Positions 3,001-6,000 of a DNA stretch of 64,000 nt are shown here, in pieces. The DNA lies in NCBI RefSeq assembly GCF_048403405.1, contig NZ_CP183129.1; one strand, written 5' to 3'. Position numbers: made by a program. The stretch comes from Escherichia coli. GTDB lineage: Bacteria > Pseudomonadota > Gammaproteobacteria > Enterobacterales > Enterobacteriaceae. Numbering within the stretch: the first letter of the stretch is position 1; every line of letters begins with the position of its first letter.

Positions 3001-6000
3001 ATTCGGTGTAACCCCAGCGTGGCCTGTTGCTCCTCGCTTTTAACGGCGACGGATTTTACCGGCTGCTGAACCGCCAGCCAGATGGCTCGGGCGTCCATCA
3101 CATCGTTTTTATTTCCCATCACGAATGCTTTGACGAACCGGCCTTTGAGTAATCTGACCTTATGTCCCAGTTTCTGAAGCTCACGCGCCCAGTGATGAGA
3201 ACCCCCACAGGCCTCCATGCCGATAAGGCAGGGTTCACGGTTGCTGAAATATTCAAGGAATTTCTCACGCTTAACCTGCTTATCGATAATCTCTACGGTA
3301 TGTTCATCAACGAAATGCACCTGCATAAGATGTTTTGCAATATCAACGCCGACAGGGATATATTTCATGGTGTGGATCCTCCAGTCTGTTGGGAGCGAAA
3401 CGCATCCCGTTGGGCACGATGATGCCGGAAATCTGCGGGGATCCACACTCATCTACTTAATCCCCGAGCGGCTCATTTCATAATGTTGGGATGCGTTCAT
3501 TACATTTCCTTTTTGCAGATAAATGAAAACGCCAGCCCTGTTCAGGCTGGCGTCAGTGGAATAAAGTCTGGTGAGTAAGACTCACCTGTTCTGTTGCAGA
3601 AGCTGCTGTTGGCGCAGGGTACGGATATCTTCCCTGGCCTGTTTAATGCAGGGCAGCAGTGCTGCTGAATCCGTTTTATCCTCATCGTTGTCGAAGATAA
3701 TCCCTGATTCGCAGTCAATATTGTCCTGCAGCCACGCAATCAGAATATCCAGCGCTGTTTCCGTGGTTAATGATTTCATGTTGTGAATTTCCGGGTTACC
3801 AGTCGAAAGTGGGTAAATCCGGCAGGCATTCAGCGCTGGCATCCAGATGAATGAGACTGACGCCATAACGTCGGGTAAGTGTGACAACCAGACGGCGGAA
3901 CGTTTTTGACAGCCCCAGGCGTTTAAGCCGCAGAACCGGGTATGACCACGCATCGGTACGTAACAGATATCCGCTACCTGTAAAATGAATCCATTCTGAT
4001 TCGCCGGTGTCATTCGTCTGATGCGACAGCGAGTACAGCCAGGCGTTGTCTGTTTCCGTGATATGCGCGGTACTACAGCGTATACCGCTCAGGGCAGCAG
4101 AGGGGGGGGTGCTGTCTGTTGAGGTCCGGTCAGATTCATCAACAACACGAAGGGAGTAGCCATTATCGCAGACCACGTTAATCAGTTCGGCAAGCTCAAC
4201 ACCATCGACGTCAACGACAATTCGCCCCATGTTCAGTGCCTGTACGTTAACGCTGTCAGCTTCCAGCGTCAGGGCCAGTTTCATCGTTTTGCCTCCGGAT
4301 GCTTGCCCTGGGTAATGTTATTTACCATTCTGTAATTGTTCCGGGTCATCAGGCCGGTCGCCCTGCGAGCCCGGAGAATATCAATGCTGTTGATTAACTG
4401 CGACGGGGCTCCTGCGCTGAATCCCGGCTGGTCGGTACGTACCAGCGCGTATTTTTCAACGAGAAAGTTCACCGCGTCACACAGTGAAATCCCTGCCTCA
4501 ATATGCTGCTCAATCACACGTTCATCAGCGAACGGTGTGTCATTCAGCGTGAGGCCATAGTGCTGGTCCAGCAGTTGGGTGAGCAGTGTCTGCCAGATGG
4601 TGACGGGAGACGGGCAGCGCGATGCCGCCCGTACGTGTGTGTCGGGTAATGTTTTCATACTGAAGATTTTCCTGATATGCAGATATAAGAAATGGAAAAG
4701 TGGCGTGGAGAAAGCACCAGGCCGGAGCAGAAGACTATTCCGGAGGGTTACTTTCCGTTTCGGTCGCAGGATAAACAGCCAGATAAACGTAACCACAGGA
4801 CCCGAGGGTGTCGGCATCGCAGGTCAGCCCTTTCGCATACAGCGTGACGGTATGCTGATGGCGGGGATTCAGTTCACCGCTGGTGAGCATGAGTTCCAGT
4901 TGTTTCATCAGCAGTGGAAAAGCCTGGTCCAGATGGTATGCATCCGCATTGCTGAACCGGCCCCTGATACCGGCGCGGTCGGCAAGGTAATGCAACCGGT
5001 TACCCTCCTGCACCAGACGGGCGCCAAAACAAGGTGTCACGGCGCAGGGCAGCCCCCACCAGGGGAGGTCTTTGTTGTCGTCGGGAAGCGTTGTTCCGGG
5101 GAGTGTGTCCGACATGATAAAATCCTCACAGAAAATCGGTGAATGATAGTTTAACGATGACGGGTCAGCCGGCGCGCAGACCGGCTTCGGTGAAGGTATA
5201 TTCGTTGATGAGAAGGGCCTCATCCACAGCGGTGTCTGAGGTCAGCCAGTCGTACTTGTTTTCCAGCTGGCGGTACAGCCAGAAGGCCAGGTCGCGCAGG
5301 GCTTCGCTGACAGCGGCTTCCGCATCGGTTGTCATTGCCTGACCAGTCGGACTGTTCCGGGTAACAGTGATATCCATGCTGTACGGATGGCAGTAACGTC
5401 CCCGGTGACTGATTTCAGCCTGAAGCTGCCAGAAGTTACGTTTCTGCACCGCCTGCAGGGTATCAGCAATACGATGAAGCTCACGCTCCTGCGGTGCATG
5501 CTCCCTGATTCTCCGGGCTGTTGCAGACTGCCAGTGCCAGCGTCCTTCAAAACAGGCTCCGTCCCCCTGGCTGCAGAATCCGCTGAACCAGATGCACGGC
5601 TCTTCCATAAACCTGCCATTGCTGAGCCGGAAAACGCGCTGGCGGAGGTCAATCCCGAAAATGCCACAGACCTCCCTGAAGTCTTCATACACGTTTTCAT
5701 ACCAGTTGCTGTCAGCATGATGCTGACGGTACCAGTCGCGGGCTTTTCCCCGTGCCGGGCAGGAAAGTTCATCCAGCGTATACACTGTGATGGTGATAAT
5801 GCTGCTCATCAGAATGCCTTTACTGACTCAGTTCAGAGTGACGCTCATCAGCCGGACATACGGGCCAAAACTGTCCTTACGACGTTCAGCAAACACGGCC
5901 AGCACACCGGGAATATCCTGCACTTCACGACCGGTATACGCTTCAGTGCTGCCGTGCCAGCGGTATTTGCCGGTACAGAACGGGAAAAGACGGGATGTCG

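What the first reader, a model, noticed from the sequence alone, without database searches (positions are those of the whole stretch)
5165..5809. Unrecognised 214-aa gene inserted inside the otherwise canonical yeeT-cbeA-cbtA array
The remembered CP4-44 order is yeeS-yeeT-yeeU-yeeV; here a 214-aa ORF rich in Trp, Cys, His and Arg sits between yeeT and cbeA, co-oriented and tightly spaced. It could be an additional antitoxin-associated or anti-defence factor. It is not acidic, so it is unlikely to be an ArdA-type DNA mimic.
Basis: inference. Interest (0 to 1): 0.45.

Follow-up and report, generated by a model that had tools for sequence, protein, structure and literature searches.

The report
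Common uncharacterised mobile-element gene, misnamed antitoxin
The 214-residue gene is real and conserved, but it is a common, already catalogued gene of unknown function carried by genomic islands, conjugative elements and phages, and E. coli K-12 lacks it only because it was deleted there.

Summary
The ORF at 5165-5809 (minus strand, 214 aa) is a genuine gene. It lies 18 nt after the yeeT-like gene and 49 nt before cbeA. It is under purifying selection (dN/dS 0.17-0.24), and its AlphaFold2 model has a mean pLDDT of 96.

It is not unrecognised. 2,024 of 5,426 complete E. coli genomes carry it. [quoted passage not shown] It matches PHROG 5162, and the family has about 3,500 clusters at 50% identity.

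It is not an insertion. K-12 CP4-44 keeps the gene's ribosome-binding site and first 8 codons as a deletion scar, found in 3,113 genomes.

The family also occurs without CbtA/CbeA:
- in alphaproteobacterial conjugative elements, with ArdC, ParB and strawberry-notch genes;
- next to ArdA on a Paenibacillus plasmid;
- among early genes of lytic phages.

My best reading, which is inferred, is a mobile-element establishment or counter-defence factor. I see no support for an antitoxin or a DNA mimic. The function is still untested. Overall this is an ordinary finding with a modest lead for follow-up.

The parts
5165..5809 (-). The gene in question ('X'): a 214-aa single-domain protein, RefSeq WP_000094917.1, of the DUF8835 / PHROG 5162 family.
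   Evidence: ORF listed. 100% identical to an annotated CDS in E. coli M16807. PHROG 5162 at E 5.8e-36. No Pfam, NCBIfam or PADLOC match. AF2 pLDDT 96.4. dN/dS 0.17-0.24.
5817..5821 (-). Shine-Dalgarno-like AAAGG, 8-12 nt upstream of the ATG of X. The same element plus the first 8 codons survives as a scar in K-12.
   Evidence: Read from the sequence. Aligns 25/29 to the K-12 yeeT-cbeA spacer.
5828..6049 (-). The upstream neighbour: DUF987 (YeeT/YkfH/YpjJ-like), 73 aa.
   Evidence: PF06174, E 7.5e-39. Annotated.
4735..5115 (-). The downstream neighbour: CbeA/YeeU-family type IV antitoxin, 126 aa. The mechanical ORF extends to 5223, but the real start is MSDTL at 5115.
   Evidence: PF06154, E 3.8e-54. 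RefSeq CDS limits.
4281..4658 (-). CbtA/YeeV-family toxin, 125 aa.
   Evidence: PF06755, E 3.2e-60. RefSeq CDS limits.
6112..6588 (-). RadC-like JAB-domain protein (YeeS-like).
   Evidence: PF04002, E 8.3e-45. RefSeq CDS limits.
6604..7089 (-). Antirestriction protein of the KlcA/ArdB type (PF03230), two genes upstream of X.
   Evidence: PF03230, E 3.4e-37.
7144..7962 (-). DUF932 (YafZ/YfjQ/YubP-like). First gene of the co-directional block that contains X.
   Evidence: PF06067, E 6.3e-51. This family ranks third in size among families enriched in plasmid leading regions (PMC11541004, supplementary file 3).
3796..4284 (-). DUF5983 (YeeW-like). Overlaps the cbtA stop by 4 nt.
   Evidence: PF25638 and PF19419. 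DUF5983 is also listed as a leading-region-enriched family.
3582..3779 (-). DUF957 gene, the last gene of the block.
   Evidence: RefSeq annotation of the identical locus.
8012..8041 (-). Terminator-like hairpin upstream of the DUF932 gene. Marks the likely upstream limit of the transcription unit.
   Evidence: 13-pair stem followed by a T run. This is a consensus match only.
3528..3554 (-). Terminator-like hairpin after the DUF957 gene. Marks the likely downstream limit of the transcription unit.
   Evidence: No terminator-like site lies between yeeT, X and cbeA.

Best explanation
[quoted passage not shown] No function has been assigned.

In Enterobacteria it is an old resident of the co-directional block DUF932 - KlcA-like antirestriction - RadC - DUF987 - X - CbeA - CbtA - DUF5983. 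The K-12 order without it results from a roughly 640-bp deletion.

Most likely mechanism (inferred, not shown): X is transcribed with its neighbours as part of a chromosomal counterpart of a plasmid leading region or anti-defence island. It would act early after the element enters a cell, as an establishment or counter-defence factor. It would work as a stand-alone globular alpha/beta protein through a conserved polar site, formed by the loop G77-F-x-S-Q81-G-D83-G84 together with Y139-x-H141. That site would bind or modify a host or defence component.

X is neither a canonical antitoxin nor an ArdA/Ocr-type DNA mimic. The 'antitoxin' name is most likely an annotation artefact of its position next to cbeA and its occasional fusion to it.
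For: Shown:
- The gene is real and constrained.
- It is common: 2,024 of 5,426 complete E. coli genomes and 2,943 places. The exact sequence occurs on at least 1,000 contigs.
- The K-12 spacer keeps the RBS plus 8 codons (MSRIIATT) and then jumps to just upstream of cbeA. This scar occurs in 3,113 genomes.
- GC content is 0.567, like its neighbours.
- Divergent X alleles (about 60-64% identity) occupy the same arrays in E. coli, Citrobacter, Klebsiella and Salmonella. X has therefore co-diverged with the array.

Independence from the toxin-antitoxin pair:
- In 18 sampled alphaproteobacterial loci the usual neighbours are strawberry-notch helicase (11 of 18), ParB-N, DUF4326, ArdC and DUF2958.
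- One such locus lies in an integrative conjugative element with Tn4371-type gene content, inside a plasmid.
- On a Paenibacillus plasmid the homologue directly follows ArdA.
- 52 phage genomes carry homologues among small early or terminal-repeat genes.

Neighbouring families:
- DUF905, DUF932/YubP, KlcA, DUF5983 and DUF4942 are among the largest families enriched in plasmid leading regions (PMC11541004, supplementary file 3).
[quoted passage not shown] It is probably this family.

Conserved site:
- Q81, H141, G52, L15 and G210 are invariant across 25-60%-identical members, including phage and Firmicute copies. G77, G82, D83, G84 and Y139 are nearly invariant.
Against: - No activity of any kind has been tested.
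- No known anti-defence, antirestriction or enzyme family matches by sequence or by fold.
- The association with antirestriction genes is guilt by association. In Alphaproteobacteria ArdC lies several genes away.
- In Enterobacteria X is always next to cbeA, and 455 genomes carry an in-frame X::CbeA fusion. A toxin-antitoxin-linked role is therefore not excluded.
- The conserved motifs are missing in about a fifth of distant members: 26 of 134 aligned sequences lack one motif or both. Loss of the two motifs is only weakly coupled, so a catalytic site is not established.
- Several E. coli alleles are pseudogenes: an internal stop, an IS421 insertion and the K-12 deletion. The gene is therefore dispensable in resident islands.
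Confidence: 0.5

Rival explanations
1. X is an accessory component of the CbtA/CbeA type IV toxin-antitoxin module. For example, it could modulate or partner the CbeA antitoxin, or control the toxin.
For: - In every enterobacterial locus examined, X is immediately adjacent to cbeA.
- Two gene orders occur: DUF987-X-CbeA-CbtA (window) and DUF987-CbeA(-CbeA)-X-CbtA, where X lies between antitoxin and toxin.
- An in-frame X::CbeA fusion allele (TGA to TTA plus a 34-nt deletion) occurs in 455 of 5,426 complete E. coli genomes.
Against: - The K-12 CP4-44 array keeps cbeA and cbtA without X, and the K-12 CbtA/CbeA pair is a described working toxin-antitoxin pair (established knowledge).
- The CP4-6 and CP4-57 pairs in K-12 also lack X.
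- Most of the family is in alphaproteobacterial conjugative elements, phages and a Firmicute plasmid with no CbtA or CbeA nearby.
- The conserved upstream partner in Alphaproteobacteria is unrelated to CbeA (hhalign probability 0.2%).
- The fusion keeps cbeA's own GAGGA and GTG start, so it may be neutral. PGAP treats X there as a pseudogene.
Confidence: 0.15
2. X has a housekeeping role for the mobile element rather than a counter-defence role. Examples are DNA processing, replication, partition or regulation, working with the adjacent strawberry-notch helicase/methylase, ParB-like or RadC-like proteins.
For: - In alphaproteobacterial conjugative elements X sits directly upstream of a roughly 1,440-aa strawberry-notch protein and a toprim protein, and downstream of a ParB-N protein.
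- Its start overlaps by 8 nt a conserved 136-aa gene of unknown function.
- The family is highly conserved (about 60% identity between classes), which is unusual for fast-evolving anti-defence genes.
Against: - The neighbours differ completely between Enterobacteria, Alphaproteobacteria, Paenibacillus and phages. No constant partner is seen.
- X is frequently deleted or pseudogenised in resident islands.
- It has no nucleic-acid-binding or NTPase signature.
Confidence: 0.2
3. X is a DNA-mimic antirestriction protein of the ArdA/Ocr kind.
For: - The family is acidic: median pI 4.8 and median net charge -17 per roughly 214 aa.
- It lies next to ArdA on a Paenibacillus plasmid and two genes from a KlcA-like gene in the window.
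Against: - The window copy has a net charge of only -6 and pI 5.66.
- The conserved positions are Gly, Gln, His, Tyr, Trp and hydrophobic residues, not acidic patches.
- There is no Pfam ArdA match.
Confidence: 0.07
4. The ORF is spurious or a decaying remnant with no function.
For: Some alleles carry an internal stop, an IS insertion or a deletion.
Against: - dN/dS is 0.17-0.24.
- Thousands of full-length homologues of about 214 aa occur across phyla and in phages.
- The AF2 model has pLDDT 96.4.
Confidence: 0.01

Closest known systems
[quoted passage not shown]
   Same: Full-length homology, the same length of about 214 aa, the same motifs (FSGFxSQGDGACFEG, YxH, LRDxAxWxYxQLE, NEYxFTExG), and the same position in CP4-like islands.
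   Different: Nothing. The window gene is a member, and its exact sequence is WP_000094917.1.
CbeA/YeeU type IV antitoxin (PF06154)
   Same: It is the adjacent gene in the same operon, is occasionally fused to X in frame, and shares the database word 'antitoxin'.
   Different: There is no sequence similarity. X is twice the size. X occurs widely without CbtA/CbeA, and K-12 keeps cbeA and cbtA without X.
Antirestriction proteins of mobile elements (KlcA/ArdB PF03230, ArdA, ArdC)
   Same: They share the genomic neighbourhoods of X in three kinds of element. The X family is acidic. These proteins also occur on plasmids, integrative conjugative elements and phages.
   Different: There is no sequence or fold match to any of them, and no activity data.
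Uncharacterised families enriched in plasmid leading regions (Samuel et al. 2024, PMC11541004)
   Same: X's neighbours (DUF905, DUF932, KlcA, DUF5983, DUF4942) are on that list. A family carrying X's UniProt name is listed under 'Other unknown leading families'.
   Different: The window locus is a degenerate chromosomal island with no relaxase or oriT in view. The identity of the listed family with X could not be checked by sequence.

Membership tests
DUF8835 / PHROG 5162 family | Significant full-length sequence match to family members or the family profile | tested here: met
   PHROG 5162 at E 5.8e-36, covering residues 3-210. Hits at 1e-165 to 1e-77 carry the RefSeq family name. RefSeq annotates near-identical copies as DUF8835. 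The DUF8835 model itself is not in the Pfam copy available here.
DUF8835 / PHROG 5162 family | Family motifs (QGDG loop, YxH, W177/Y179 helix, C-terminal NEYxF...G) | tested here: met
   All are present in the window protein.
CbeA/YeeU/YfjZ type IV antitoxin (PF06154) | Match to the CbeA_antitoxin profile | tested here: not met
   X has no Pfam hit, whereas the neighbouring gene scores E 3.8e-54.
CbeA/YeeU/YfjZ type IV antitoxin (PF06154) | Obligate co-occurrence with a CbtA-family toxin | tested here: not met
   The alphaproteobacterial, phage and Paenibacillus copies have no CbtA or CbeA nearby. The K-12 toxin-antitoxin loci lack X.
CbeA/YeeU/YfjZ type IV antitoxin (PF06154) | Neutralises CbtA toxicity | not testable with these tools
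   Needs co-expression experiments.
Classical 'stability system' antitoxins (StbD/RelB/Phd type II) | Small protein (about 70-100 aa) with an RHH, Phd or HTH DNA-binding domain, next to a RelE/ParE-type toxin | tested here: not met
   X has 214 aa, no such Pfam or NCBIfam domain and no RelE/ParE neighbour.
ArdA/Ocr DNA-mimic antirestriction proteins | ArdA sequence or fold | tested here: not met
ArdA/Ocr DNA-mimic antirestriction proteins | Very high negative surface charge that mimics DNA | tested here: inconclusive
   The family median net charge is -17, but the window copy is only -6. Surface distribution was not analysed.
KlcA/ArdB antirestriction (PF03230) | Match to the Antirestrict profile | tested here: not met
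   X has no hit. The gene at 6604-7089 is the PF03230 member.
Leading-region / anti-defence-island genes of conjugative elements (a functional class, not a homology family) | Clustered with antirestriction genes and other leading-region-enriched families on mobile elements | tested here: met
   Window neighbours are DUF905, DUF932, KlcA-like, DUF5983 and DUF4942. These are listed as leading-region-enriched. ArdC, ParB and strawberry-notch genes surround it in conjugative elements. ArdA is adjacent on a Paenibacillus plasmid.
Leading-region / anti-defence-island genes of conjugative elements (a functional class, not a homology family) | Located within the first genes transferred after oriT | not tested
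   No oriT or relaxase lies in the window island. In pOT1-2 the relaxase-associated genes are about 17 kb away. oriT was not mapped.
Leading-region / anti-defence-island genes of conjugative elements (a functional class, not a homology family) | Demonstrated inhibition of a defence system | not testable with these tools
   Requires experiments.

The most novel reading that the evidence does not exclude
X would be the first-examined member of a very large family (about 3,500 clusters at 50% identity) with no solved-structure relative. The family would comprise counter-defence or host-takeover proteins shared by phages, conjugative elements and CP4-like islands, acting through the conserved Q81/D83/Y139/H141 site on an as yet unknown host or immune target. 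In Enterobacteria it may be functionally coupled to the cytoskeleton-directed CbeA/CbtA module, in which it is embedded and to which it is sometimes fused.
Probability: 0.3. Interest if true: 0.6.

Novelty: already known. Interest (0 to 1): 0.3.

Why it matters
As a finding it mostly corrects a memory-based expectation. The 'canonical' K-12 order yeeT-cbeA is the derived state, and the extra gene is the ancestral state.

Three points are useful:
[quoted passage not shown] It should not be used to count antitoxins.
- The family is large, highly conserved, confidently folded, without a solved-structure relative, and shared by phages, plasmids, integrative conjugative elements and islands. That makes it a reasonable candidate for anti-defence screens.
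- The variable placement around cbeA and the natural X::CbeA fusion allow a cheap genetic test of any link to the CbtA/CbeA system.

Tried and rejected
- **Family libraries.** Pfam, NCBIfam and PADLOC scans of X and of 87 family members gave no family. Only PHROG 5162 matched, and it has no known function.
- **Solved structures by sequence.** Single sequence and profile searches gave only chance hits with E around 1.
- **Is the conserved alphaproteobacterial upstream partner (136 aa) a distant CbeA?** Rejected: hhalign probability 0.2% and no Pfam hit.
- **Do phage neighbours reveal a function?** No. They have no informative Pfam hits.
- **Are the QGDG and YxH motifs lost together, as expected for one catalytic site?** Only weakly: 4 sequences lost both, against 14 and 8 that lost one. 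No claim is made.
- **Literature.** Searches for the family name, DUF8835, PHROG 5162, accession numbers and the gene array found no characterisation.
- **RNA and promoter scans.** The Rfam scan of the region found nothing. The only promoter-like match overlaps the cbeA RBS and start and was disregarded.
- **Metagenomic contexts** of three distant members were short, phage-like contigs and were uninformative.
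Full report
**1. The observation**

The ORF exists as described: ATG at 5809, TGA at 5165-5167, minus strand, 214 aa.

Its neighbours on the same strand are, in order:
- DUF905 (8063-8296)
- DUF932 (7144-7962)
- a PF03230 antirestriction protein (6604-7089)
- a RadC/JAB protein (6112-6588)
- DUF987/YeeT-like (5828-6049)
- X (5165-5809)
- CbeA-family antitoxin (4735-5115)
- CbtA-family toxin (4281-4658)
- DUF5983 (3796-4284)
- DUF957 (3582-3779)

X begins 18 nt after the yeeT-like stop, behind an AAAGG sequence, and ends 49 nt before the cbeA start. Terminator-like hairpins flank the whole block at 8012-8041 and 3528-3554. None lies next to X. X is therefore probably co-transcribed with the block.

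The composition claim holds: W 8, C 6, H 7 and R 21 of 214 residues. The 'not acidic' claim is only half right. This copy has pI 5.66 and net charge -6, and the family median is pI 4.8 and net charge -17.

**2. A real gene, and a common one**

The window is 100% identical over X to E. coli M16807, where X is CDS WP_000094917.1, 'hypothetical protein'.

- Megablast finds X in 2,024 of 5,426 complete E. coli genomes, at 2,943 places. [quoted passage not shown]
- The exact protein occurs on at least 1,000 contigs.
- The yeeT-like gene occurs at 12,179 places. About a quarter of such arrays therefore carry X, at megablast sensitivity.
- The protein family is large: 2,465 hits in the word-indexed search and 3,482 50%-identity clusters at E<=0.001. 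Nearly all are stand-alone proteins of 200-225 aa.
- Between E. coli alleles dN/dS is 0.17-0.24.
- An AlphaFold2 model built from 87 diverse sequences has mean pLDDT 96.4 and pTM 0.88.

A spurious ORF is excluded.

**3. Not an insertion: K-12 carries a deletion**

The K-12 CP4-44 spacer between yeeT and cbeA aligns 25/29 to the RBS, ATG and first codons of X. It reads MSRIIATT, identical to the N-terminus of allele P0035. It then jumps to the sequence just upstream of cbeA, equivalent to window position 5143. About 640 bp of X have been lost.

- This scar junction occurs in 3,113 genomes. Intact X at 80% coverage or more occurs in 1,942 genomes.
- The GC content of X (0.567) matches its neighbours.
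- X alleles only 60-64% identical to this one occupy the same arrays in E. coli, Citrobacter, Klebsiella and Salmonella. X has therefore diverged together with the array.
- Other decay states exist: an internal stop and an IS421 insertion.

**4. Relationship to the toxin-antitoxin pair**

In Enterobacteria X always touches cbeA, but the gene order varies:
- DUF987-X-CbeA-CbtA in E. coli and Citrobacter.
- DUF987-CbeA-X-CbtA in Klebsiella michiganensis.
- DUF987-CbeA-CbeA-X-CbtA in Salmonella.

In 455 complete E. coli genomes a TGA-to-TTA change plus a 34-nt deletion fuses X in frame to CbeA, giving 343 aa. The cbeA GAGGA and GTG start are retained. PGAP calls X a pseudogene in these genomes.

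These facts keep a toxin-antitoxin-linked role possible. They also probably explain the misleading 'antitoxin' name. One fragment of X is even annotated 'antitoxin of the YeeV-YeeU system'.

Against an obligatory link:
- K-12 keeps cbeA and cbtA without X, and the CbtA/CbeA pair is a described working toxin-antitoxin pair (established knowledge).
- The CP4-6 and CP4-57 loci have no X.
- X has no similarity to CbeA or to any antitoxin family.

**5. The family outside Enterobacteria**

The best 80 are almost all alphaproteobacterial, at 57-62% identity.
- *Neighbours in 18 sampled loci.* Strawberry-notch helicase/methylase appears in 11 of 18, usually immediately downstream. ParB-N (5), DUF4326 (5), DUF6915 (4), ArdC, DUF2958, toprim and DUF736 also appear.
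- *Element type.* In plasmid pOT1-2 this block belongs to an integrated conjugative element with Tn4371-type gene content (serine recombinase, ArdC, ParB, X, strawberry-notch, RepA, ParA, TraF peptidase, TraG). It also carries defence cargo.
- *Upstream partner.* A conserved 136-aa protein with no Pfam match overlaps the X start by 8 nt there. It is unrelated to CbeA.
- *Firmicute plasmid.* On a Paenibacillus plasmid the homologue directly follows ArdA.
- *Phages.* 52 phage genomes encode homologues at 25-38% identity. They include Caulobacter jumbo phages (in the terminal repeats), Acinetobacter Saclayvirus, Pseudomonas Lanavirus and E. coli Av-05. The homologues sit among small unannotated early-type genes.

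**6. Published context**

Samuel et al. [quoted passage not shown] These are the same families that flank X in the window.

Their sheet 'Other unknown leading families' contains a 121-member family. [quoted passage not shown] It has no match to known anti-CRISPR or anti-restriction proteins. That name is the UniRef name of X's cluster, so it is probably the same family. I could not verify this by sequence.

No paper in the searchable library characterises the family.

**7. Structure and conserved site**

The model is an alpha/beta domain:
- helices 17-31 and 38-51
- a run of short beta-hairpins at 53-92
- helices 97-124
- a hairpin at 129-151
- a long helix at 163-189, then helix 192-201

Across members down to 25% identity, L15, G52, Q81, H141 and G210 are invariant. 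G77, G82, D83, G84, A85, Y139 and F206 are nearly invariant. In a 134-sequence alignment Q81, D83, Y139, H141, R172, W177 and Y179 are each at least 87% conserved.

The QGDG loop and the YxH loop each connect neighbouring strands. I infer that they form one polar site. I could not inspect coordinates, and the co-loss test was weak.

**8. Interpretation**

Identity is settled: X is a member of an already catalogued, uncharacterised mobile-element family.

For mechanism I commit to an establishment or counter-defence role exerted by a stand-alone protein through the conserved polar site. I put this mechanism at about 0.4-0.5. The basis is the family's spread across phages, plasmids, integrative conjugative elements and islands. 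It is also repeatedly close to three unrelated antirestriction families and to leading-region-enriched families.

The rivals are:
- a toxin-antitoxin accessory role (0.15)
- a non-defence element housekeeping role (0.2)
- DNA mimicry (0.07)

None of these has been tested experimentally. As a discovery the finding is ordinary. Its value is the corrected evolutionary direction, the flag on a misleading database name, and a candidate for anti-defence screening.

Noticed in passing
L004:3042-3112 (E. coli K-12 MG1655, yeeT-cbeA spacer), corresponding to window 5819-5791 joined to 5143-5116: K-12 CP4-44 retains the RBS and first 8 codons of X (MSRIIATT) fused to the region just upstream of cbeA. 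This is a deletion scar, and it is present in 3,113 of 5,426 complete E. coli genomes.
   Followed up: yes
L100:3001-4032; junction at L100:3590-3700: A natural in-frame X::CbeA fusion of 343 aa, caused by TGA to TTA plus a 34-nt deletion. The junction occurs in 455 complete E. coli genomes, and PGAP annotates X there as a pseudogene. It is a possible source of the 'antitoxin' name.
   Followed up: yes
L103:8610-9996 (Klebsiella michiganensis) and L105:8293-10084 (Salmonella): In these lineages X lies between the CbeA antitoxin gene or genes and the CbtA toxin gene. In E. coli it lies upstream of cbeA. Salmonella also has two tandem CbeA genes.
   Followed up: partly
L009:5598-6008, L002:7592-8008 and about 16 further alphaproteobacterial loci: A conserved protein of about 136 aa (MADYFTHFSCLLDVGTPENA...FGGGAHV) with no Pfam match has a stop that overlaps the start of X by 8 nt. 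It is a likely translationally coupled partner of unknown function and is unrelated to CbeA.
   Followed up: partly
window 2349-3368 (-): An IS110-family transposase gene is inserted between the DUF957 gene (3582-3779) and the DUF4942 gene (1220-2065) of the island.
   Followed up: no
window 1-1151 (-): A DUF6088 (AbiEi-like) gene at 756-1151 is followed by a frameshifted AbiEii toxin gene that runs off the window start. The same DUF6088-AbiEii pair flanks the X-containing element in Haematobacter plasmid pOT1-2 and the Klebsiella island (L103).
   Followed up: no
window 8906-11422 (-): An ORF of about 838 aa, annotated as a hypothetical protein, has several hydrophobic N-terminal segments. 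It lies upstream of the IrmA-family gene (8375-8830). IS66-family remnants follow at 11551-12351.
   Followed up: no
window 4735-5223 and 4281-4817 (-): The mechanical ORFs of cbeA and cbtA extend 36 and 53 codons upstream of their real starts. The cbeA extension overlaps the 3' end of X in another frame, which could mislead automatic gene calling.
   Followed up: yes
L094 (E. coli K-12 CP4-57): The current K-12 annotation names yfjX and yfjY as lfgA ('putative antirestriction protein') and lfgB ('CP4-57 prophage protease'). Homologues of the antirestriction and RadC genes beside X therefore have newer functional names that may be worth reading up on.
   Followed up: no
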